Shown here piece after piece: positions 1 to 26,699 of a DNA stretch of 28,768 nucleotides. Made by a program: the position numbers and the translations under genes. The DNA is from a virus, in the IMG/VR virus record IMGVR_UViG_3300017760_000057, one strand, 5' to 3'. Within the stretch, counting starts at the first letter, position 1. The number at the start of each line of letters is the position of its first letter. The notes beneath the pieces are model-generated. The model was not told where the DNA came from, did not search any database, and saw only the letters and a program-made list of their open reading frames with translations.

Positions 1-123
1 ATATCAGTAGTAGAAAATCCAGCAATAGAAGAAGATTTTATTGCACTTAAATCACAAGAGTTTAAACTTGCTGAGGTAGACAAAGAGAAACGCATTTTAA
101 TGGGTGCTTTACTAATTCCAAAT
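1..123. repeat. Left copy of the exact 123-bp terminal direct repeat (identical to 28646-28768)
   Basis: Base-by-base comparison of both window ends: atatcagtagtagaaaatcc...ttactaattccaaat is present at both. Confidence 0.95.
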
Positions 124-1158
124 AAGCCTATATACAGACGAAACGGAGAAGATGAATACTACATATACTTCTCAAAAGATACTGTCTTAAAAGCCTCACA
201 AATGTACTTAATGCAAGGCAAACAAAACAACTCAACCTTAGAACACCAATACCAAATAAACGGACTTAGTTTAGTAGAGAGTTGGATAGTAGAAGATAAG
301 GTACACGACAAGTCTGTAAAGTATGGTATGGATTTACCATTAGGTACTTGGGTAGGTGCTGTAAAAGTAAACAACGATAAGATTTGGAGTGAGTTTGTTA
401 AGACAGGTAAAGTAAAAGGGTTTTCTATAGAGGGTTACTTCGCTGATAAGATGGAACGACCAAAAGAGGCTATCAAAGATTTTAGTAGTGATAAAGTTCT
501 ACAAGAGATAGACGAAGCTGAGGCAGAATACTTATTAGCTCAAGTAAAGGCTATCATAAAAAATGACAAAAGATATAAGGGTGGTAAAAAGACTACTTTA
601 GAAAGTTACTCTGATTATCCAAGTGGTGTTAAAAACAATGCAAAGAGAGGCTTAGAGTTAAACGATAAAGTAAACAACAAATGTGCGACACAAGTAGGAA
701 AAGTAAGAGCACAACAATTAGCACAAGGTAAAGCGATAAGCGAAGAAACTATAAAACGTATGTACTCTTATTTATCAAGAGCAGAGGAGTACTATGATGA
801 GGGAGATACTAAAGCGTGTGGTACTATCTCGTATTTACTATGGGGAGGTAAAGCTGGTAAGCGTTGGGCAGAGAGCAAACTAAAAGAATTAGGTGTATTA
901 GAATTAGCAAGTGAAGTTGTAAGTGATACTATGGCTATTATTGATGATAGATTAGCTTATGCAACTAAAGAACTTGCTATAAAAGCTGCACAAGATATAG
1001 GATGTGATAAATACCACGAACACGAGTTTGAGGGTAAGACTTGGTATATGCCTTGTGAACAACACAACCTTAAAGCACCTTGTACTGCTGGTTATGAGCA
1101 ATACGGAATGAAAATGAAAAATGGTAGATTAGTACCTAATTGTATTCCAATAAAATGA
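1..1158 (+). CDS. Prohead protease-like (XkdF-type) multidomain head-maturation protein, 3' part. The real start is ATG 28592 across the circular junction, and ATG 100 is an internal Met.
   Basis: The frame is open from base 1 (ISVVENPAIEEDFIALK...) and is in phase with ATG 28592 through the repeat. The VENPAIEEDF / EKRILMGALLIPNKP / YYIYFSKD pattern matches what I recall of XkdF-family phage proteases. The gene sits directly upstream of the scaffold-like and capsid genes. The C-terminal half carries LLWGGKAGKRWA and Cys/His motifs. Confidence 0.6.
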   Translation: MSVVENPAIEEDFIALKSQEFKLAEVDKEKRILMGALLIPNKPIYRRNGEDEYYIYFSKDTVLKASQMYLMQGKQNNSTLEHQYQINGLSLVESWIVEDKVHDKSVKYGMDLPLGTWVGAVKVNNDKIWSEFVKTGKVKGFSIEGYFADKMERPKEAIKDFSSDKVLQEIDEAEAEYLLAQVKAIIKNDKRYKGGKKTTLESYSDYPSGVKNNAKRGLELNDKVNNKCATQVGKVRAQQLAQGKAISEETIKRMYSYLSRAEEYYDEGDTKACGTISYLLWGGKAGKRWAESKLKELGVLELASEVVSDTMAIIDDRLAYATKELAIKAAQDIGCDKYHEHEFEGKTWYMPCEQHNLKAPCTAGYEQYGMKMKNGRLVPNCIPIK

Positions 1159-1298
1159 GAAAGCTAATAAAGAAATTTATAACACCAAGTAAAACAAGTC
1201 CTAAAGGTAAACGTAGAGGTTGTTTATGTGAGGATAACACTTACAAGATAGAGTGTTGTGATGGTAGCCTTAGAGCGCAAGGTATAGGAAAAGTATAA
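1155..1298 (+). CDS. Small basic Cys-rich protein (47 aa), hypothetical
   Basis: Hand-translated as MRKLIKKFITPSKTSPKGKRRGCLCEDNTYKIECCDGSLRAQGIGKV. Its ATG overlaps the upstream stop as ATGA, which is the dominant gene junction in this genome. Confidence 0.4.
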   Translation: MRKLIKKFITPSKTSPKGKRRGCLCEDNTYKIECCDGSLRAQGIGKV

Positions 1299-4141: not shown

Positions 4142-4175
4142 CAAAATAAATTAGTTTTGTTTATATATTAGTATG
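4142..4175 (+). promoter_or_regulatory. Copy B of the repeated element, ending in the start codon of 4173
   Basis: caaaataaattagttttgtttatatattagtatg. The first 12 nt and the TTATATATTA core are identical to copy D (28561-28594). Confidence 0.5.
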
Positions 4176-4523
4176 AAGTTAATAGGAACAAATGGGAATA
4201 AGACTTTTAAGGTAATTCCTAGACAATTTATTAATGGTGCAATTACTGTAAATCTTACAAGTGAAAGCACAGGAACTAATGTAAGTATTACACCAACAGG
4301 CTCAACGGATGGAAACTATATGTCTTTTGTTGCTGCTTTTGGTACATTAACTGAGGGCGATTTTTATACCTTAGAAATAAAAAATGGTACTGCTGTTATA
4401 TACAAGGATAGAGTTTTTTGTACAGACCAGACAGTAAACCAAACAAATAATGATTACTATTCAGTAAATGATGGAGAATACACCACAGAGAATAGTTTTG
4501 ATAACGATTATATTATTTTATGA
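4173..4523 (+). CDS. Small beta-rich virion-associated protein, hypothetical
   Basis: 116-aa ORF starting at the repeated element, with an ATGA overlap onto the portal gene. Its C-terminus NDGEYTTENSFDNDYIIL resembles the shared C-terminal peptide. Confidence 0.5.
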   Translation: MKLIGTNGNKTFKVIPRQFINGAITVNLTSESTGTNVSITPTGSTDGNYMSFVAAFGTLTEGDFYTLEIKNGTAVIYKDRVFCTDQTVNQTNNDYYSVNDGEYTTENSFDNDYIIL

Positions 4524-6341: not shown

Positions 6342-6842
6342 ATGGCAACAGCATTATTTATAAACAGGACAGATTTAGTCAAGAACTCAATACTTGATGG
6401 CAATGTAGACACAGATAAGTTTATACAATTTATCAAGGTTGCACAACAGATAGACATTCAGAATTTATTAGGAACAGACTTATACAACAAAATAAGTGGT
6501 CATATTATAGCTGGTAATTTAGCTGGTAATTATTTATCATTAGTAAACACTTATGTACAACCTACATTGATTTGGTTTGCTCAAATGAACTATATACCAT
6601 TTGCAGCTTATCAGATAAAAAATGGTGGTGTATTTAAGCATAGTAGCGAAACTGCACAGAACGTAGATAAGAATGAAGTAGATTATTTAGTAGGTAAGGC
6701 AAGAGAGTATGCTAATTATTATTCAACAAGATTAGTAGATTATTTAAGTTTTCACAATGATTTATTTCCAGAGTATAATAGTAACACAGATGAGGATATA
6801 AGTCCAGATACAGATACAACCTTTAAAGGATGGGTTTTATGA
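6342..6842 (+). CDS. Head-tail adaptor/connector-like protein
   Basis: 166 aa immediately after the portal. Helical N-terminal pattern (FIQFIKVAQQIDIQNLLGTDLYNKI) resembles gp6-type connectors by recall. Confidence 0.4.
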   Translation: MATALFINRTDLVKNSILDGNVDTDKFIQFIKVAQQIDIQNLLGTDLYNKISGHIIAGNLAGNYLSLVNTYVQPTLIWFAQMNYIPFAAYQIKNGGVFKHSSETAQNVDKNEVDYLVGKAREYANYYSTRLVDYLSFHNDLFPEYNSNTDEDISPDTDTTFKGWVL

Positions 6843-6890
6843 GATATAAAGTAAAAGAAACAAATTTAACAAAATTAAAAAATTACATAG

Positions 6891-7022
6891 ATGCCGATAC
6901 CAAAACCAAAAGCGAGAGAGAAGCAAAAAGATTTTATGATTCGGTGTGTAGCAGAGATGACAAAGGAATACAATAGAGAACAAGCAGTAGCGATATGCTA
7001 CCAAACATATAAAGACAAATAA
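6891..7022 (+). CDS. Small conserved phage protein (43 aa) with an F..RC...QAVAICY motif
   Basis: Hand-translated as MPIPKPKAREKQKDFMIRCVAEMTKEYNREQAVAICYQTYKDK. I recall this P.P...F..RC...QA.A.C pattern as recurrent in phage head modules. Its stop abuts the next ATG. Confidence 0.5.
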   Translation: MPIPKPKAREKQKDFMIRCVAEMTKEYNREQAVAICYQTYKDK

Positions 7023-7199
7023 ATGGCATTTGGAAAAATATACGATACGACTTATTGGGGTAATGGTGCTATAGATAACACTATAGGATGGGGTATAGTT
7101 TATAGAGATTATATTGACCCTACAACAGCTTTTGAAGTATTAGCTGAGAATGGAGATTATTTACAAACTGAACAAAACGAATATATAATAATAGAATAA
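7023..7199 (+). CDS. Small protein (58 aa) carrying the shared C-terminal peptide LAENGDYLQTEQNEYIIIE
   Basis: Hand-translated as MAFGKIYDTTYWGNGAIDNTIGWGIVYRDYIDPTTAFEVLAENGDYLQTEQNEYIIIE. It is tightly packed between neighbouring genes, just upstream of the tail fibre. Confidence 0.5.
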   Translation: MAFGKIYDTTYWGNGAIDNTIGWGIVYRDYIDPTTAFEVLAENGDYLQTEQNEYIIIE

Positions 7200-7209
7200 A
7201 TTTAAAAAA

Positions 7210-8850
7210 ATGGCAAATAAAAAATTTAGTGAATTTACAGTAAAAACTGACCCAGCAAATGTTGATTTTTTGGTCGGTTATGATGGTACGGATAACGTCC
7301 GTATTGACCCATCTAATTTAGGTGGCGGTGGAGCTTCAGACTTGAATGGTCTTACAGATTGTTTAGTTGATACTGCTTCTTTATATGTTGGAGAAGTGCC
7401 GAGCGGTTTAAGTGGTAATCCACAAGGTAATACTATTCTTGGTATAAATGCTGGTAATTCTTTAACAACTGGTAATAGTAATATTGCGATTGGTTTTGAA
7501 GCTGCTCGCGACACTACTACTACAAGTGCAGTTATTGCTATTGGCTCAAAAGCTGGTCGAGTTGCTACAACTGGAATAGGTGAAACTATAATTATTGGTA
7601 ACTTTGCAATGAACTCAAATACTGGTGCTGCAAAATCTGTTATTATTGGTGGTCAAGCTGGATGGAATGCGTCTGGTGGTCAAGGTCTTTCAATAGGTTA
7701 TTTAGCTGCTCCATCTAACACAAACGTAGGACACCATAGTATAGGTTATCAAGCTGGTTACTCACAAACTTCTGGGATACAAAATACTAATATAGGTTAT
7801 GAAGCTGGATATAACAATACAACTAATGCGTTTAGAACTTGTATAGGTTATAAAGCTGGAAAATTAAACACTGGAAGTGGTAATACTTTTATTGGTAATA
7901 ATGCTGGTGCAGATAGAGCTAATGTTGAGGGGCATAGTACAGCAGTAGGAAATTCTGCTGGAAGATATTGGGAATCTGGCTCAAACACTGCTTTGGGGGA
8001 GAATGCTGGTCAATATGCTAATGGAACAAGTCGCTATAATGTAATGGTAGGAAGAGATGCTATAGGTGGTTCTTTTGGTTCTAAATCAAACAATGTAGGA
8101 GTAGGATATAGAGCTGGATATAATTTAACTACAGGTTTTAGAAATGTTTTACTTGGTCATCAAGCTGGATTAGCTTTAACAACTGCTTACGATAACATAT
8201 TAATTGGCTCAGAATCTGGTAAATCATTAACAACAAATCCAAACTCAAGTCAAAATATTATTCTTGGAACTCAAGCTGGATTTTCAGCTAATGGTGCAAA
8301 TGGTAATGTAATATTAGGTTATCAAGCTGCATATGGATTAACAAGTGGAGAAACTAATGTAATAATTGGTCAATTTGCATCAGCTTATAGTGGTGCATTA
8401 ACTACAGGAGATAATAATACTATTATAGGTTTTAACTCATATCCAAGTTCTGCAACTGTAAATAATGAAATAACTTTAGGAAATTCAAGTATATCTACTT
8501 TACGTTGTGCAGTTACTTCTATAACTTCATTATCTGACGAAAGAGATAAATCAGAAATAAAAGATTTAGGTTATGGACTTGCTTTTATAGATGCTTTACA
8601 ACCAAGAGAATTTGTGTGGGATAATAGACCAGAATTAGATAAAGACGGCGAGGAAATTTATTCAGCTAATAAAGGTAAAAAAGACTTTGGTTTTATAGCT
8701 CAAGAAGTACAAGAATTAGATAATGATACTTTAAGACTTGTTTATGATAGCAACCCAGAAAAACTTGAGTTAAGTTATGGTAAACTTGTTCCTATATTAG
8801 TACAAGCAATAAAAGAATTAAAAGCAGAAGTAGAATTATTAAAATCATAA
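7210..8850 (+). CDS. Tail fibre/spike with a repetitive G-x-x-A-G beta-helix region and a C-terminal intramolecular chaperone (peptidase S74) domain
   Basis: More than 20 repeats of about 14 aa (IGYQAGY, IGYEAGY, IGYKAGK, VGYRAGY, LGHQAGL...). The C-terminal SDERDKSEIKDL...FGFIAQEVQEL...LSYGKLVPILVQAIKELKAEVELLK matches the S74 chaperone-of-endosialidase pattern. Confidence 0.85.
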   Translation: MANKKFSEFTVKTDPANVDFLVGYDGTDNVRIDPSNLGGGGASDLNGLTDCLVDTASLYVGEVPSGLSGNPQGNTILGINAGNSLTTGNSNIAIGFEAARDTTTTSAVIAIGSKAGRVATTGIGETIIIGNFAMNSNTGAAKSVIIGGQAGWNASGGQGLSIGYLAAPSNTNVGHHSIGYQAGYSQTSGIQNTNIGYEAGYNNTTNAFRTCIGYKAGKLNTGSGNTFIGNNAGADRANVEGHSTAVGNSAGRYWESGSNTALGENAGQYANGTSRYNVMVGRDAIGGSFGSKSNNVGVGYRAGYNLTTGFRNVLLGHQAGLALTTAYDNILIGSESGKSLTTNPNSSQNIILGTQAGFSANGANGNVILGYQAAYGLTSGETNVIIGQFASAYSGALTTGDNNTIIGFNSYPSSATVNNEITLGNSSISTLRCAVTSITSLSDERDKSEIKDLGYGLAFIDALQPREFVWDNRPELDKDGEEIYSANKGKKDFGFIAQEVQELDNDTLRLVYDSNPEKLELSYGKLVPILVQAIKELKAEVELLKS

Positions 8851-9134: not shown

Positions 9135-9266
9135 ATGGAAATTACAAAAGAACAAATTGCAAGAGTAAATCAAGTCATTAACACATTGCCTATCGCTGTA
9201 TTAGCACAAGCTCAAGAGATTGTAAAAATACTAAACGAATCGCTACCAAAAGAAGAAGATGAATAA
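9135..9266 (+). CDS. Small hypothetical protein (43 aa)
   Basis: Hand-translated as MEITKEQIARVNQVINTLPIAVLAQAQEIVKILNESLPKEEDE. It overlaps the next gene by 8 nt. Confidence 0.4.
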   Translation: MEITKEQIARVNQVINTLPIAVLAQAQEIVKILNESLPKEEDE

Positions 9267-10530
9267 CCCTGTTTTAGCACTTATACCAAGCGGATATAAA
9301 CAAGATAAAGTTTATTCTGTATTGCCAAATGATGGTACAGGAGATTTTGACTTTGTTAGAGTTGGTGCTGGTACAAGAGTTAATAAAGATGGACTTATAG
9401 AAACTATAGGTGCTTCAACAAACGATATACCAAGACTTGATTGGTTAAATAGCAACTGTCCGAGTTTACTATTAGAGGCACTTAGAACAAACAGACAAGT
9501 TTATTCTGAGCAGTTTGACAATGCAGCTTGGACTAAACAAGCAGACTTAACTGTTACTGCAAATCAAATAATATCTCCTACTGGGGAATTAAATGCTGAT
9601 AAAATAAAAAGAGGCTCAACAAGTGGTACAAACAATTACCTTTCTGATGCTGCTTCTAAGTCATCATCTGCACAGTTAGACATTTGTACTTCTGTTTTCG
9701 TCAAACAAGGCGAGGGCGATTTTTTTGCTTTAAGGATGCAAGGCACTTACCCAAATAGAGCTGATGCTATTTTTCAATTTAGCAATACAACTTTAACAAC
9801 AAGTGTGGCTGGTGCAGATTTTACAATAACAAGTTCTAAAGTAGAAAATTATGGTAATGGTTGGTACAGACTTTCTGTTGTTTACAATACAGATGCTGCT
9901 GCTACTATTGGAAGTTATTTTAGTCCAAGAGCTACAACTGGTCAAATAGATGCTTCAGATACTTCTACAAGTGCTTTTGTTTATATGTGGGGTTGTCAAG
10001 TAGAAGAGGGTAAAACCTTATCAAGCTATATAGAAACACCAGCAAATTCAATGGTAACAAGAAACGCAGATGTTTGTACTGATGCTGGAGATGTTAATTT
10101 ATTTAATATTACAGAGGGTACATTTTTTGTTGATGTAAATAGCTTTAATCCTCCTTATTTAGATTATAATATTATTAGTCTAAGTGATGGTACAACTAAT
10201 AATTATATTACGTTTACTTATCAACTTAATAGTTTAAGAGTTATGGTTTACAATGGCTCAAATCAGCTGAATTTAATTATAACTTCAGAATTTAATATAA
10301 ACCAAAGAAACAAAGTAGCTTTAAAATTTAAAGAAAATGAGTTTAAGGTATATATTAATGGTGCATTGAGGTCTACTACTACAAATGTTGTAGTTCCTAC
10401 TGGTTTTAACAGATTTAATTTTGCAAGTCAAACTGGTGCAGATAGATACTTTGAGGGTAAAGTATATGATGCCAGAGTCTACGACACATACTTAACTGAT
10501 AGCGAATTAGAAACACTTACAACATTATGA
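9259..10530 (+). CDS. Putative receptor-binding/tail-fibre protein with a C-terminal LamG (concanavalin-like) domain
   Basis: 423 aa. The C-terminal FEGKVYDARVYDTYLTDSELETL is the typical LamG_3 ending. The gene lies in the fibre region. Confidence 0.55.
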   Translation: MNNPVLALIPSGYKQDKVYSVLPNDGTGDFDFVRVGAGTRVNKDGLIETIGASTNDIPRLDWLNSNCPSLLLEALRTNRQVYSEQFDNAAWTKQADLTVTANQIISPTGELNADKIKRGSTSGTNNYLSDAASKSSSAQLDICTSVFVKQGEGDFFALRMQGTYPNRADAIFQFSNTTLTTSVAGADFTITSSKVENYGNGWYRLSVVYNTDAAATIGSYFSPRATTGQIDASDTSTSAFVYMWGCQVEEGKTLSSYIETPANSMVTRNADVCTDAGDVNLFNITEGTFFVDVNSFNPPYLDYNIISLSDGTTNNYITFTYQLNSLRVMVYNGSNQLNLIITSEFNINQRNKVALKFKENEFKVYINGALRSTTTNVVVPTGFNRFNFASQTGADRYFEGKVYDARVYDTYLTDSELETLTTL

Positions 10531-22981: not shown

Positions 22982-24096
22982 GCAAGATAAACGCAAGAAG
23001 TCCATTTTACATATCAGTAACTGCAACTAATTTAACAAGCTGTAAGTTAGAGTTGTTTATATATACAGGAACACAAACAACTAACAGACCAACAACAGCT
23101 ACTTATACACTACAATCATTTGCAGTAGAAGAAAGATGTACTTTTGAAATAGCTGAGTTAGTAAGAGATTACTTTACTAATACATTTGACGGAGATTATG
23201 CAACTGAGATACAATGGGTAGATTATAGAACTACAAATACAATACAAAATACAGAAGGCTCTGCAAGTAGCTTTACACAACTAAAAGGTTTTTATGGTTA
23301 TGGCTTTTTTGAAGATGGTGTAAACCCAACTAACAATCAAGGTCTTTTACAATCTAATACAACAATAGTAAAGTTAGATGATGCACCAGCTACAATAGCA
23401 GTAGACACCTCAACAACAACTCAAGTAACATATGAGCTAAACGGACAACAAGTATATACTAAAGCTATTAGTTCAAATTCAGTATCTACAACACAAATAG
23501 AATACGTTACAAATGGTATAAATGGCTCTGATGAGTTTGAGGATAGAGTAATACAAGCTGGTGGTACTTTTGAGGGTAGTTCTTGTTTAGATGCTTTTAG
23601 TAATGAGTTTACTTTATTTGACTTTGACACGATATATGTAGATACTACAAGTGGTGTAACTAAGCTAACTGTAAAGAATGAAACTGAATGTAAGTTTACA
23701 CCATACAAAATAACATTTATAAATAAGTTTGGTAGCTTACAAGATATATGGTTTTTTAAACGTACTAACGAAGCACTAACAACTAAAACAGAAAAGTTTA
23801 AGAGAAACATAATTAGCAATGCTACTTATAATATAAGCAACCATCAAGATAAAACACTTACTAAGAATGGTAAAGAGAAACTAACACTAAACACAGGATA
23901 TTATCCAGAGGCTTATAACGAAGTATTTAAAGAAATGCAATTAAGTGAGGATTGTTGGATAGAGATAGATTCTAAGACATTACCGATACAAGTAACAAGT
24001 AGCTCTTTAGCATATAAGACACAACTAAACGACAAGATAATAAATTACACAATAGAAGTTGAATTTGCTTTTGACACTATAAACAACATACGTTAA
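22978..24096 (+). CDS. Virion structural protein (tail or baseplate component)
   Basis: 372 aa, Thr/Asn-rich and beta-like, with an ATGA overlap upstream and a TAATG overlap downstream. Confidence 0.4.
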   Translation: MSKINARSPFYISVTATNLTSCKLELFIYTGTQTTNRPTTATYTLQSFAVEERCTFEIAELVRDYFTNTFDGDYATEIQWVDYRTTNTIQNTEGSASSFTQLKGFYGYGFFEDGVNPTNNQGLLQSNTTIVKLDDAPATIAVDTSTTTQVTYELNGQQVYTKAISSNSVSTTQIEYVTNGINGSDEFEDRVIQAGGTFEGSSCLDAFSNEFTLFDFDTIYVDTTSGVTKLTVKNETECKFTPYKITFINKFGSLQDIWFFKRTNEALTTKTEKFKRNIISNATYNISNHQDKTLTKNGKEKLTLNTGYYPEAYNEVFKEMQLSEDCWIEIDSKTLPIQVTSSSLAYKTQLNDKIINYTIEVEFAFDTINNIR

Positions 24097-26699
24097 TGCA
24101 GATAATAGAACTATACATAAGAGATGGTATTAGATATTATGGTAATGCTACATCTACCTCAACTAATAACTTAGTAGATGCAAACGCTGATTTTACAAGT
24201 ACAGTTAAAGTAGGCTATATAGCTTTTAATGAAGTTGATAACACATCTGCTAAAGTTACTTCTGTATCTGCAACTACATTAGGTTTATCTGATGATATAT
24301 TTACAGTTAATGAGCCTTACTTATTAATGAGTGATTATCAAAGGTTAGATTTATTTAAAGATGAAAGTGTAAGCATTACAGATAGTGTAAAGAACGTAAA
24401 AGATGTAGCTAAGATATTTACTCCTTTTTCTCAACAGTTTAATGTACCAGCTTCTAAGCATAACTCTAAGATATTTAGACATTATCAAGATAGTGATATA
24501 TTAGATAGCTTTGATGCGAGATATAAAGCAGATGCACTTATAAAATTAAACGGAGTAGATTACAAGAAAGGTAAGATAAGATTAAATAGCGTATCACTAA
24601 AAGACAATAAGCCACACTCTTATAAACTTATTTTCTTTGGCGAAACAGTAGGCTTAAAGGACTTATTAGGAGAAACTATGTTAAGTGGTCTTAACTATGA
24701 TTCAAGCTTAAACTTTGCTTATAGCCACGCAGTAATATATCCTAAATTTACAGCCTTAGATGATGTTTGTTTTCCTTTAATCACGCATACTAAAAATATG
24801 CGATATAATAATAACTCTTATATTTCTTCAACACCAGTAGCTAATGAAAAATTAAACTATAGAGATTTAAAACCAGCTATAAAGGTTAGAAAGATAATAG
24901 ATGCTATAGAAAACACTTTTGATGAGATAACATTTAGTGGAGAGTTTTTTAACACTACAGACTTTAATAGTCTTTATATGTGGATGCACAGAGAGAAAGG
25001 TTTTATGAGTAATGCAGATGAGGGTGGAGGTTTAACTATATTAGAAAATTTATTTCACTTACCTACTGATGAGGGTTTAACTATTGTTCCTGGTACTGGA
25101 GATGAGGCAAGACCTTTACAAGGTACACCTCCAGATATACTTGGTTTAAATGGTCAATTTGCAGCACTAAATATTAGAATTACAACCTCAGCAACAACTG
25201 ATGAATTTGATTTTAGAGCTGAACACGGATATTGGGGAAATACACTTACTGAAAGTACAGGTAATACAGGCAGTACGTCTTATACATTTACAGTTCCTGT
25301 AGGTTATTATGATACGGCTAATGTTAGATTAATACTTACATCAACAAATACATTTAATATTGTAGATTACGAAATAGATGCAAGTTTAAACGGAATTTTG
25401 CAATGTACTTATGAAAGTGATTCTTTCTCACTAGCTAATACAGTAGTAATAGGTAGACATATGCCTAAGATGAAAGCTATTGACTTCTTAACTAACTTGT
25501 TTAAGATGTTTAATTTAGTAGCTTACAAGGTAGACAATACAATTAGAGTAGTACCTTTAAATGATTACTATGAAGAGGGTTTAAATTATGATATTACTAA
25601 ATATGTAGATACAAGCAAAAACTCTATAAGTAAAGTATTACAATTTAAAAACATAGAATTTAACTTCCCAAGCAAAGAAAGTTTTTTAGTTAAAAAATCA
25701 GATGAATTACAAGGTGCTAATTTTGCTGGAGAAAATTATGGAGATGTAGAATGGGATGGCACAGATTATAAGATAGAGCCTATATTTGAAAAAATGCTTT
25801 ATGAAAGATTATCTGACGAGCAACACGGAACTCTTACAACTATATGTCAAGGCGCTATGCTTGATAAAGACTTTAATGCTACTATTGGTAAACCATTATT
25901 GTTATATATAGCTAATCAAACTGCAACACCAAACTTTTTATTTGCAAATGCTGATGGTGGTGGCAATGAAACTGTAACTGCATATAATAGACCAAGTCAA
26001 GTATTAGTACAGTCTGGAGGTAGTGTTTTAGGTGCTTCAAGTTCTTTAAATTATGGTGTAGAAAGTGATGAGTTCTTTTTAGAGCCTAAAGGTACAAACT
26101 TATTAGCTAAATATTATTTAGACTATGTACAAAGTGTATTTAACAGACAGGCACGAATAAACAAAGTAGATGCTTATTTGCCTTTACATATTATTTTAAA
26201 ATACGAATTAAATGATAAATTTGTAGTAGGTAATAAAACTTATAGAATAAATACAATAAAAACAAATCTATTAAACAACAAAAGTTCTTTAGAATTATAT
26301 AGCTTATCGCAAAGTATAACAGGGATAGAAAACGACCAAACAGCAAGTTTAGGTAGATTAGCAAGTCTTAATGTTACAGTTAAAGGCTCAGACTTTATTA
26401 CTATTGGGTGGACTGCTTTACCAAATCCTGTAGCTAATAATATTACTGGTTATGATTTATATGTAGATGACACATTTTCTCAAACATTACCAAATACAAC
26501 TGTATCTAAAAAAGTAACAGGTTTACAAAGCGAGATAACATATAAGTTTGCAATTAGAGTAAGATATACTATTGGTGGTGTTGTTTCTTTTTCAAATGAT
26601 ACAATAGCATATGGTACAACTTTACCAGCACCTACTGCTCTTGCAGAAAACGGAGATACGCTAATAACTGAACAAAGTGATACAATAATATTAGAATAA
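24096..26699 (+). CDS. Large tail/baseplate protein with a C-terminal fibronectin type III domain and a terminal LAENGD...TEQ...IILE peptide
   Basis: 867 aa. FN3-like LNVTVKGSDFITIGWTALPNPVANNITGYDLYVDD...VTGLQSEITYKFAIRV. The N-terminal region resembles distal-tail/baseplate proteins by recall. Confidence 0.55.
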   Translation: MQIIELYIRDGIRYYGNATSTSTNNLVDANADFTSTVKVGYIAFNEVDNTSAKVTSVSATTLGLSDDIFTVNEPYLLMSDYQRLDLFKDESVSITDSVKNVKDVAKIFTPFSQQFNVPASKHNSKIFRHYQDSDILDSFDARYKADALIKLNGVDYKKGKIRLNSVSLKDNKPHSYKLIFFGETVGLKDLLGETMLSGLNYDSSLNFAYSHAVIYPKFTALDDVCFPLITHTKNMRYNNNSYISSTPVANEKLNYRDLKPAIKVRKIIDAIENTFDEITFSGEFFNTTDFNSLYMWMHREKGFMSNADEGGGLTILENLFHLPTDEGLTIVPGTGDEARPLQGTPPDILGLNGQFAALNIRITTSATTDEFDFRAEHGYWGNTLTESTGNTGSTSYTFTVPVGYYDTANVRLILTSTNTFNIVDYEIDASLNGILQCTYESDSFSLANTVVIGRHMPKMKAIDFLTNLFKMFNLVAYKVDNTIRVVPLNDYYEEGLNYDITKYVDTSKNSISKVLQFKNIEFNFPSKESFLVKKSDELQGANFAGENYGDVEWDGTDYKIEPIFEKMLYERLSDEQHGTLTTICQGAMLDKDFNATIGKPLLLYIANQTATPNFLFANADGGGNETVTAYNRPSQVLVQSGGSVLGASSSLNYGVESDEFFLEPKGTNLLAKYYLDYVQSVFNRQARINKVDAYLPLHIILKYELNDKFVVGNKTYRINTIKTNLLNNKSSLELYSLSQSITGIENDQTASLGRLASLNVTVKGSDFITIGWTALPNPVANNITGYDLYVDDTFSQTLPNTTVSKKVTGLQSEITYKFAIRVRYTIGGVVSFSNDTIAYGTTLPAPTALAENGDTLITEQSDTIILE

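What the first reader, a model, noticed from the sequence alone, without database searches (positions are those of the whole stretch)
26640..26696. Shared C-terminal peptide on three otherwise unrelated virion-module proteins
The 867-aa FN3 protein ends LAENGDTLITEQSDTIILE, and the 58-aa protein (7023-7199, C-terminal peptide at 7140-7196) ends LAENGDYLQTEQNEYIIIE. That is 13 of 19 identical residues, both running to the very last residue. The 116-aa protein (4173-4523, peptide at 4467-4520) ends in a looser version, NDGEYTTENSFDNDYIIL. The DNA differs at synonymous positions (gca gaa aac versus gct gag aat), so the conservation is at protein level and not a DNA repeat. A common terminal strand could be a docking tag for one virion site, a trimerisation/strand-exchange motif or an assembly signal.
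Basis: seen in the sequence. Interest (0 to 1): 0.7.

Follow-up and report, generated by a model that had tools for sequence, protein, structure and literature searches.

The report
Portable docking peptide for tail fibres
Two unrelated tail proteins of this uncultured marine phage end in the same ~19-residue peptide, a mobile and undescribed module that is almost always encoded next to one class of tail-fibre gene and most likely serves as that fibre's attachment point.

Summary
The shared C-terminal peptide is real for two of the three proteins. The 867-aa FN3 protein and the 58-aa protein share 13/19 residues; the next-best pair in the window shares 6. The 116-aa protein is not a supported member (tag profile E=2.1); it shares only a terminal D-Y-I-I-L.

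The tag is 2.5 units of an 8-residue repeat (h-x-T/A-E-x-G-D-x). It is a portable module:
- Present or absent as a clean 72-nt in-frame block in FN3 homologs.
- Fused to other tail proteins elsewhere.
- Found in 1, 3 or ~6 copies per protein.
- Found on 89 protein families among 1.84 billion representatives.
- No genuine tag in 596 Gb of cellular genomes; no Pfam, PDB or literature record.

Several lines link it to a fibre with a conserved 37-aa N-terminal module (MANKKFSEF...):
- 67/75 independently found fibre genes have a tag-ending ORF immediately upstream.
- In relatives, a different C-terminal module on the small protein goes with a different downstream gene N-terminus.
- The FN3 tag occurs only in phages that carry the fibre cassette (6/6 versus 1/7).

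Best reading: a minimal docking peptide coupling tail-side proteins to the fibre. It works like the Klebsiella-phage "conserved peptide/branching domain" pair but has different parts. The physical contact is inferred, not shown.

The parts
26640..26696 (+). Tag core (19 aa, LAENGDTLITEQSDTIILE) at the extreme C-terminus of the 867-aa FN3 protein
   Evidence: Translation. Tag profile E=1.1e-14. 92% mean pairwise identity among homologs versus 64% for the protein body.
26622..26693 (+). 72-nt (24-codon) optional block, LPAPTA linker plus tag, that distinguishes tagged from untagged FN3 alleles
   Evidence: DNA alignment of tagged and untagged homologs shows one clean in-frame indel with perfectly aligned flanks. 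Coordinates were derived from that alignment and the reading frame.
24096..26699 (+). Carrier 1: 867-aa tail-region protein (phrog_38559, C-terminal FN3 domain) of unknown role
   Evidence: 41 IMG/VR homologs. No PDB relative by sequence.
7023..7199 (+). Carrier 2: 58-aa protein, made of an N-module (MAFGKIYDTTYWG...GWGIVY), a linker (DPTTAFEV) and the tag
   Evidence: AF2 monomer is unstructured, pLDDT 45.8.
7140..7196 (+). Tag core (19 aa, LAENGDYLQTEQNEYIIIE) at the extreme C-terminus of the 58-aa protein
   Evidence: Translation. Tag profile E=2.6e-16.
7210..8850 (+). Tail fibre gene starting 10 nt after the 58-aa gene; it has a C-terminal Peptidase_S74 intramolecular chaperone
   Evidence: Pfam PF13884 at 3e-10 and PHROG tail fibre/spike families. 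It is the only protein in the window carrying the fibre N-module.
7210..7320 (+). Conserved 37-aa fibre N-terminal module (MANKKFSEFTVKTDPANVDFLVGYDGTDNVRIDPSNL), followed by a GGGG linker. This is the proposed partner of the tag.
   Evidence: Conserved across 98 distinct tag/fibre pairs while the shaft varies. N-module HMM E=1e-26. 67/75 independently found fibre starts have a tag-ending ORF directly upstream.
4173..4523 (+). 116-aa protein claimed as the third carrier. It is NOT a supported member. It is an Ig-like beta-sandwich with its own invariant, unstructured C-terminal tail (residues 86-116, nt 4428-4520).
   Evidence: Tag profile E=2.1. hhalign aligns only NDYIIL. AF2 gives pLDDT ~90 for residues 8-85 and 41-55 for the tail. 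The tail is invariant in the 40-sequence alignment.
9259..10530 (+). 423-aa Laminin_G tail protein, untagged here. Its homolog in L093 has the tag fused to its C-terminus and replaces the small protein upstream of the fibre.
1155..1298 (+). 47-aa Cys-rich small ORF, an untagged homolog of a small-protein family that carries the tag in other phages
   Evidence: compared with P0015-P0026 and L065.

Best explanation
The tag is a portable docking peptide of about 19-25 residues. It consists of two 8-residue units (h-x-T/A-E-x-G-D-x, probably beta-strand plus tight turn) and a final hydrophobic strand ending in an acidic residue.

It is displayed on a flexible linker at the end of tail-side proteins. 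Its job is to couple those proteins to the tail fibre whose first 37 residues form a conserved module (MANKKFSEF...VGYDG.DNVRI.P.NL).

On this reading the 58-aa protein is a minimal adaptor. Its N-module holds on to the virion, and its C-terminal tag holds the fibre. The 72-nt block on the FN3 gene gives that protein a second copy of the same connector.

Shown here: the module is real, mobile, under protein-level selection, virus-specific, and genetically coupled to this fibre class in both directions.

Inferred: that the coupling is a direct physical contact between the tag and the fibre N-module, that it forms by co-folding or beta-strand addition, and the stoichiometry. The 3- and ~6-copy carriers hint that tags act in threes, which would match a trimeric fibre.
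For: (1) Portability. FN3 homologs differ by one clean 72-nt block, and its presence does not follow body similarity. The tag is fused to a Laminin_G tail protein in L093 and to a phrog_23052/6616 tail protein in L056. The Cys-rich small proteins exist with and without it. Carriers hold 1, 3 or ~6 copies separated by Pro/Thr-rich linkers, and the smallest carriers are 38-46 aa.

(2) Selection. Tag identity is 92% versus 64% for the body. pN/pS is about 0.2 with pS about 0.5.

(3) Forward linkage. 51/62 small tagged ORFs lie directly upstream of an MANKKFSEF/QF fibre gene, and 4 more precede MA-x-x-K-[I/F]-[S/T]-[E/G]-L genes. The gap is mostly 10-11 nt.

(4) Reciprocal linkage without selection on the tag. 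67/75 newly found MANKKFSEF genes (116/127 overall) have an ORF ending in the tag immediately upstream.

(5) Generality. In at least 11 other lineages, motif-bearing ORFs are followed by genes starting MA-x-x-K-I-S-E-L...G.T.K.

(6) Module swap. In L014, L020 and L038 the small protein keeps its N-module but has a different C-module, and the downstream gene starts MSNLLSKASILLTP... instead of MANKKFSEF.

(7) Rosetta-stone fusion. In L093 the tag fused to the Laminin_G tail protein replaces the small protein's N-module and sits directly before the fibre gene.

(8) Long-range co-occurrence. Tagged FN3 alleles occur only with the fibre cassette: 6/6 versus 1/7 for untagged alleles, Fisher p=0.005.

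(9) Subtype association. TEFQ-type tags pair 13/13 with the VSHIVGY/VSSLVGY fibre N-module variants (MI 1.36 bits; the maximum over 2,000 permutations was 0.91).

(10) The tag-bearing 58-aa protein has no confident fold alone (pLDDT 45.8), as expected for a peptide that folds on binding.

(11) Carriers elsewhere are tail-side structural proteins: P22 gp10-like hub proteins and a cyanomyovirus protein annotated as a baseplate wedge subunit.
Against: No physical or structural evidence for a tag-fibre contact could be obtained.

Gene adjacency and subtype association could reflect co-inheritance of a cassette rather than binding.

The window has two tags but only one fibre gene with the N-module, and the two tag subtypes stay distinct.

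There are exceptions. P22 gp10-like carriers are followed by genes with a different N-terminus (...REWYRFF...). Cys-rich tagged proteins sit in a head-gene neighbourhood and are followed by a non-fibre gene. 8/75 fibre genes have no tagged ORF upstream.

The co-occurrence table is small (13 contigs) and not corrected for relatedness.
Confidence: 0.5

Rival explanations
1. The tag is a self-associating oligomerisation element, like the T4 fibritin foldon or a short triple beta-helix built from 8-residue repeats. It would trimerise its carrier or set its register. The fibre linkage would then be incidental, because such elements simply belong to trimeric tail proteins.
For: Extreme C-terminal position in 94 of 134 stop-terminated profile hits. 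An 8-residue periodicity with a G-D turn. Carriers with exactly 3 or ~6 copies. Unstructured as a monomer. By my own inspection, not a tool test, the turn/hydrophobic spacing resembles the foldon (RDGQAYVRKDGEWVLL versus ENGDTLITEQSDTIIL).
Against: It is optional in the FN3 family, and its presence tracks the fibre cassette rather than the carrier. Minimal carriers of 38-46 aa have nothing else to trimerise. The small protein's C-module swaps together with the downstream gene's N-terminus. The tag profile does not retrieve fibritin or any PDB chain. This reading is compatible with the best explanation if three tags co-fold with three fibre N-termini.
Confidence: 0.2
2. The tag docks its carriers onto a third, common virion component such as a baseplate, hub or neck protein. 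The fibre would attach separately, and the small protein would be an accessory of the fibre cassette.
For: Two different carriers in one virion share the tag. There is only one fibre gene but two tags. Tagged Cys-rich proteins are not next to a fibre gene. Hub-type carriers are followed by a different kind of gene.
Against: No candidate receptor protein co-varies with tag presence in the loci examined. Untagged FN3 homologs are evidently functional, so the tag is not needed to place that protein in the virion. The reciprocal linkage, the module swap and the L093 fusion all point to the fibre N-terminus specifically.
Confidence: 0.2
3. The conservation is at DNA or regulatory level, for example a promoter, translational coupling or a recombination linker in front of the fibre gene. 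Alternatively the tag is a low-complexity or chance similarity without protein function.
For: The tag-coding sequence lies within about 70 nt of the fibre start codon in most cases, and it borders a frequently exchanged cassette.
Against: Synonymous sites are near saturation while the peptide is kept. The FN3 copy is not next to the fibre gene (about 17 kb away in the window coordinates). The same peptide occurs in high-GC lineages with different codons and in internal or tandem positions. Chance is excluded.
Confidence: 0.03
4. The tag has an activity of its own, for example binding Ca2+ or a host surface component through its invariant E-N-G-D...T-E residues, or forming a covalent (isopeptide or ester) link as in SpyTag-like systems.
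For: The invariant positions are polar or acidic (L, A, E, N, G, D, T, E) rather than only hydrophobic, which is unusual for plain beta-strand addition.
Against: No similarity to any known metal-binding, adhesin or isopeptide domain in Pfam or the PDB. Nothing in the context points to host binding, and the fibre has its own variable distal part. This could not be tested here.
Confidence: 0.07

Closest known systems
Conserved N-terminal peptide of RBP2 docking on the T4gp10-like branching domain of RBP1 in Klebsiella podophages KP32/K11/KP34 (Latka et al. 2026, PMC13352976; Latka et al. 2019, PMC6872550)
   Same: A short conserved peptide (29 aa there, 37 aa here) at the N-terminus of a receptor-binding protein is what attaches it. 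The partner element sits on another tail protein. Both elements are modular and exchangeable between phages, and the genes are adjacent.
   Different: The acceptor there is a folded branching domain homologous to T4 gp10. Here the proposed acceptor is a 19-25-aa repeat peptide on a linker, with no T4gp10-like domain detected in any carrier. There is no sequence similarity. The interaction there is shown experimentally; here it is inferred.
T4 fibritin foldon (C-terminal beta-hairpin trimerisation unit of about 27 aa)
   Same: Size, extreme C-terminal position, turn-rich beta-hairpin character, and occurrence on phage fibre-type proteins.
   Different: The tag profile retrieved no PDB chain at all, so it did not retrieve fibritin. 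The foldon is obligatory for its carrier, whereas this tag is optional, multi-copy in some proteins, and linked to another gene.
Dockerin-cohesin system of cellulosomes
   Same: A small duplicated-segment module appended by a linker to the C-terminus of many unrelated proteins plugs them into a common partner. Presence or absence is modular.
   Different: Dockerins are ~70-aa Ca2+-binding helical modules of bacteria with a defined cohesin partner. There is no Pfam dockerin hit. The tag is about 3 times shorter, probably beta, and viral.
Tail fibre assembly/chaperone proteins (lambda Tfa, T4 gp38/gp57A) and the intramolecular Peptidase_S74 chaperone
   Same: Small accessory genes tightly linked to fibre genes.
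   Different: Those are, from general knowledge, encoded downstream of the fibre gene and act on the fibre's C-terminal tip. Here the small gene is upstream, next to the fibre's N-terminus, and the fibre already carries its own S74 chaperone. The same tag is also fused to large structural proteins.
Eight-residue repeats of triple-stranded beta-helices (T4 gp5 C-terminal needle, VxGxxxxx)
   Same: Period of 8 residues with a conserved glycine, on phage tail proteins that work as trimers.
   Different: Only 2.5 units here, a different consensus, and no structural evidence. This comparison rests on recalled knowledge only.

Membership tests
   58-aa protein E=2.6e-16 and FN3 protein E=1.1e-14. 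The 116-aa protein at E=2.1 does not meet it.
   72-nt indel in FN3 alleles. Laminin_G protein with or without the tag. Cys-rich protein with or without the tag. For the 116-aa protein this is not met: its tail is invariant in all 40 aligned homologs.
Klebsiella-type branching domain / conserved peptide RBP docking pair | Acceptor is a T4gp10-like branching domain on the primary RBP | tested here: not met
   No T4gp10-like or related family in Pfam or PHROGs for any carrier. The acceptor candidate is a 19-25-aa peptide.
Klebsiella-type branching domain / conserved peptide RBP docking pair | Short conserved N-terminal peptide on the docked RBP, followed by a variable receptor-binding part | tested here: met
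   The 37-aa N-module is conserved across 98 distinct pairs, followed by a Gly linker and a variable shaft. There is no sequence relation to the KP32 peptide, so this is functional analogy only.
Klebsiella-type branching domain / conserved peptide RBP docking pair | Direct physical interaction required for RBP incorporation | not testable with these tools
This needs AF-Multimer or experiment.
T4 fibritin foldon | Detectable sequence or profile similarity to fibritin's C-terminal domain | tested here: not met
   The tag profile against all PDB sequences at E<=10 returned only one noise hit (a TLR6 chain).
T4 fibritin foldon | Forms a trimeric beta-hairpin propeller | not testable with these tools
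   Only a monomer prediction was possible, and it was unstructured.
Peptidase_S74 intramolecular chaperone fibres | C-terminal PF13884 domain | tested here: met
   Met for the fibre 7210-8850 (PF13884 at 3e-10). This applies to the fibre, not to the tag.
Tail fibre assembly proteins (Tfa / gp38-like) | Family match and position downstream of the fibre gene | tested here: not met
   No Pfam or PHROG hit for the 58-aa protein. The gene lies upstream, 10 nt before the fibre start.
Dockerin | Pfam Dockerin_1-type duplicated Ca-binding segments | tested here: not met
   No Pfam family at E<=0.1 for the 58-aa protein or for the C-terminus of the FN3 protein.

The most novel reading that the evidence does not exclude
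The tag and the fibre N-terminal module form a previously unrecognised, minimal peptide-to-peptide coupling standard. A 19-aa repeat peptide would co-fold with the first ~37 residues of a fibre, probably three tags with a trimeric fibre. Many unrelated marine phage lineages would use it (Flavobacteriia-type phages, high-GC phages, and a cyanomyovirus protein annotated as baseplate wedge) to hang interchangeable fibres on whatever tail protein carries the tag. That would be a natural plug-and-play connector far smaller than any known fibre-docking domain.
Probability: 0.3. Interest if true: 0.8.

Novelty: new variant of a known kind. Interest (0 to 1): 0.6.

Why it matters
How fibres are attached decides which receptor-binding proteins a phage can carry, and so its host range. 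Known attachment systems use folded anchor or branching domains.

A 19-25-residue tag would be the smallest fibre connector described. It can be pasted onto any tail protein as a 72-nt block, and it travels with a fibre cassette. That would explain how uncultured marine phages shuffle fibres so freely.

It would also give an engineering handle analogous to the Klebsiella "conserved peptide". In addition, it provides a sequence signature that annotates hundreds of "hypothetical" small ORFs in marine viromes as fibre adaptors, along with the N-terminal anchor of their fibres.

Tried and rejected
- **AF2 monomer of the 58-aa family.** No confident fold, so it says nothing about the mechanism beyond "not an autonomous domain".
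- **PDB profile searches.** I searched with the tag, the fibre N-module, the FN3 protein and the fibre. Nothing useful came back.
- **Pfam.** No hit for the 58-aa protein, the FN3 C-terminus or the fibre N-module.
- **Literature searches by peptide strings.** Only unrelated hits.
- **Word-indexed protein search with the 58-aa protein and with a tag alignment.** Returned mainly orthologous small proteins.
- **Cellular genomes.** 8 pattern matches, none a real tag, so there is no prophage or host anchor.
- **Cultured phages.** P12024S/L lack the tag. There are no significant tblastn hits for the 58-aa protein or the fibre N-terminus.
- **Pelagiphage lead.** Only the second half of the fibre module matches, it is internal to the fibre, and there is no tagged ORF upstream. 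Not supportive, so I dropped it.
- **The 116-aa protein as a third member.** Rejected. Fold search shows only a generic Ig/FN3-like sandwich.
- **DNA repeat or regulatory explanation.** Rejected on synonymous-site data.
Full report
**1. The observation**

The window is a 32% GC phage genome fragment with all long ORFs on the + strand. Translation confirms three C-termini:
- The 867-aa protein (24096-26699) ends ...TALAENGDTLITEQSDTIILE*.
- The 58-aa protein (7023-7199) ends ...EVLAENGDYLQTEQNEYIIIE*.
- The 116-aa protein (4173-4523) ends ...SVNDGEYTTENSFDNDYIIL*.

The first two share 13 of 19 residues, ungapped, up to the last residue. Among all 1,225 pairs of window proteins the next-best C-terminal pair shares 6. 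In 500 shuffles the maximum was 8.

The two coding stretches share 39/57 nt, and 5 of the 13 identical residues use different codons.

A profile of the tag built from other phages hits these two proteins at E=2.6e-16 and 1.1e-14 among 472 window ORFs. The 116-aa protein heads the noise at E=2.1, with only "DYIIL" aligned. Profile-profile comparison aligns only the last six columns. Gapped pairwise scores are marginal: p=0.02 and 0.11, with an unrelated C-terminus scoring nearly as high.

**2. What the third protein is**

In 40 aligned homologs of the 116-aa protein the last ~40 residues are the most conserved part, and they never vary in presence. AF2 predicts a confident Ig-like beta-sandwich for residues 8-85 (pLDDT ~90) and an unstructured tail for residues 86-116 (pLDDT 41-55). 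The fold matches only generic Ig/FN3 domains.

It is thus a similar kind of object, a folded domain with a conserved free C-terminal tail encoded just before the portal gene. It is a fixed feature of its own family, not a copy of the portable tag.

**3. Where the window comes from**

The nearest cultured relatives are Nonlabens (Persicivirga) phages P12024S/L, at 31-36% protein identity. Their proteins do not carry the tag.

IMG/VR holds 41 related contigs.

**4. The tag is a discrete, mobile module**

*In the FN3 family.* About 13 loci end with the tag, while about 25 stop right after the FN3 domain (...ATTD*). DNA alignment shows that the two forms differ by one clean in-frame 72-nt block (linker LPAPTA plus tag), and both flanks align perfectly. 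Presence does not follow overall similarity. An 86%-identical homolog lacks it and a 67%-identical one has it.

*Conservation.* Where present, the tag is among the three most conserved 19-aa stretches of the protein, at 92% versus 64% mean pairwise identity. pN/pS is about 0.2 while pS is about 0.5 (sequences there were selected by peptide pattern, so one search is the unbiased measure).

*In viral contigs.* A back-translated scan for L-A-E-N-G-D-x-L-x-T-E found at least 118 stretches, where I estimate fewer than one would be expected by chance. In 83 of the hits the stop codon lies exactly 19-22 residues after the L.

*In cellular genomes.* The same pattern in 596 Gb gave 8 matches, about the number I estimate from chance, and none is a real tag.

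*Carriers elsewhere.* These include FN3/phrog_38559 homologs, a Laminin_G tail protein, a phrog_23052/6616 tail protein, a tail fibre (motif near residue 73), and P22 gp10-like hub proteins with an internal copy.

*Exhaustive census.* A profile search of 1.84 billion representative proteins found 89 families at E<=1e-3. Most are 38-90 aa with the tag at the very end. Several carry 3 or ~6 copies separated by Pro/Thr-rich linkers.

*Repeat structure.* Variants such as VTAENGDF-LIAENGDN-IIIEE show that the tag is 2.5 units of an 8-residue repeat.

*Other examples.* The window's own Cys-rich 47-aa ORF (1155-1298) is an untagged member of a family that is tagged in other phages. The cultured cyanomyovirus S-H34 has one internal unit in a protein annotated as a baseplate wedge subunit.

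*Prior record.* Pfam, the PDB and the searchable literature contain nothing on the motif.

**5. Link to a tail fibre**

*Local context.* The 58-aa gene ends 10 nt before a 546-aa tail fibre gene (7210-8850), which has a C-terminal Peptidase_S74 chaperone.

*Forward linkage.* Across all loci, 51 of 62 small tagged ORFs are followed directly by a gene starting MANKKFSEF/QF, and 4 more by MA-x-x-K-[I/F]-[S/T]-[E/G]-L genes. The upstream neighbour varies.

*Reciprocal test.* I scanned for the back-translated fibre start without reference to the tag. Of 75 new loci, 67 have an ORF ending in the tag immediately upstream; over all loci it is 116 of 127.

*Fibre anatomy.* The fibre's first 37 residues are conserved. 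A Gly linker and a variable shaft follow.

*Other lineages.* In at least 11 lineages outside this phage group, motif-bearing ORFs are followed by genes starting MA-x-x-K-I-S-E-L...G.T.K.

Three further observations tie the tag itself, rather than the small protein as a whole, to the fibre:
- **(a) Fusion.** In L093 the tag is fused to the Laminin_G tail protein, the small ORF is absent, and the fibre gene follows directly.
- **(b) Module swap.** In L014, L020 and L038 the small protein keeps its N-terminal module but has a different C-terminal module, and the next gene starts MSNLLSKASILLTP... rather than MANKKFSEF.
- **(c) Long-range co-occurrence.** The FN3 tag is encoded far from the fibre gene, yet it occurs only in contigs that also carry the fibre cassette: 6/6 versus 1/7 for untagged alleles, Fisher p=0.005. 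The window and two multi-locus contigs agree.

Tag subtypes also associate with fibre N-module subtypes. TEFQ-type tags pair 13/13 with the VSHIVGY/VSSLVGY variants (MI 1.36 bits; the maximum over 2,000 permutations was 0.91). Linkage could produce this on its own.

**6. Mechanism proposed**

The tag is a docking peptide displayed on a linker at the end of tail-side proteins. It couples them to the conserved N-terminal module of the fibre.

The 58-aa protein is then a minimal adaptor, with its N-module on the virion side and the tag on the fibre side. The FN3 tag is a second copy of the connector.

The peptide is unstructured alone, so co-folding or beta-strand addition with the fibre N-termini is the likely mode. 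Copy numbers of 3 and ~6 hint at three tags per fibre trimer.

Genetic coupling, modularity and selection are shown. Direct contact, structure and stoichiometry are inferred. Complex prediction could not be run.

**7. Evidence that does not fit**

- The window has two tags but one fibre gene with the N-module.
- P22 gp10-like carriers are followed by genes with another N-terminus.
- Cys-rich tagged proteins sit among head genes and precede a non-fibre gene.
- 8 of 75 fibre genes have no tagged ORF upstream.
- The pelagiphage lead gave no support.

A foldon-like trimerisation role, or docking to a third virion component, remains possible. Both could coexist with the proposed role.

**8. Comparison with known systems**

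The closest documented analogue is the Klebsiella podophage system. There a 29-aa N-terminal conserved peptide of RBP2 docks on the T4gp10-like branching domain of RBP1, and both are needed for RBP2 incorporation (PMC13352976).

The logic is the same: a short conserved peptide on the fibre, an acceptor on another tail protein, and modular exchange. The parts differ. No T4gp10-like domain is present in any carrier, and the acceptor candidate is itself a 19-25-aa repeat peptide.

The foldon, dockerins, Tfa-type chaperones and triple beta-helix repeats share single features but fail the membership tests that could be run.

**9. Verdict**

This is a real, undescribed, virus-specific portable peptide module. 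It is carried by two, not three, window proteins and is genetically coupled to a defined class of tail fibre.

It is a new variant of a known kind (modular fibre attachment), of moderate to high interest. Its mechanism is well motivated but unproven.

Noticed in passing
window 1155-1298 (+): A 47-aa Cys-rich ORF (…RRGCLCEDNTYKIECCDGSLRAQGIGKV*) overlaps the stop of the 352-aa protease-like gene. It is an untagged homolog of a small-protein family that carries the tag in other phages, e.g. L065 12365-12604 and P0015-P0026.
   Followed up: partly
window 6830-6976 and 6891-7022 (+): Two small ORFs (48 and 43 aa) overlap by 86 nt in different frames. Both have conserved counterparts in relatives L010, L012, L024, L025 and L036. 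This could be overlapping genes or a frameshift product.
   Followed up: no
window 4173-4523 (+), tail at 4428-4520: The 116-aa protein just upstream of the portal gene is an Ig-like beta-sandwich with an invariant C-terminal tail of about 30 residues, predicted to be unstructured. The tail is the most conserved part of the family and may be a docking tail of its own, for example onto the portal or neck.
   Followed up: partly
window 7210-8850 (+): The tail fibre carries a C-terminal Peptidase_S74 intramolecular chaperone, so it is presumably auto-cleaved. Its first 37 residues form a conserved module that has no Pfam or PDB record.
   Followed up: partly
L244 (Synechococcus phage S-H34, NC_070965.1 ~57603-57725): This cultured T4-like cyanophage has one internal tag-like unit (RLLAENDDFLQTENDEYINYQ) in a large protein annotated as a baseplate wedge subunit. 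It is a possible experimentally tractable carrier.
   Followed up: partly
L014 22265-22444, L020 12887-13066, L038 22179-22358: An alternative 59-aa small protein has the same N-module as the window's 58-aa protein but a different C-module (…FENFGGSLDLLTEIQDVL*). It is followed by a gene starting MSNLLSKASILLTPTAY…. This suggests a second adaptor/fibre pairing class.
   Followed up: partly
window 100-1158 (+): The 352-aa protein combines an XkdF-like S78_2 protease N-domain with a C-terminal DUF3721. The structural genes run off both ends of the window, with fibre genes near the start and the FN3 and tape-measure-like genes near the end.
   Followed up: no
L047 7293-7637 and 7702-8718: In an unrelated phage, a 114-aa tagged protein and the following 338-aa protein share the same N-terminus (MSSLLTQLGQK…). 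It looks as if a short tagged paralog of a fibre is encoded in front of it.
   Followed up: no
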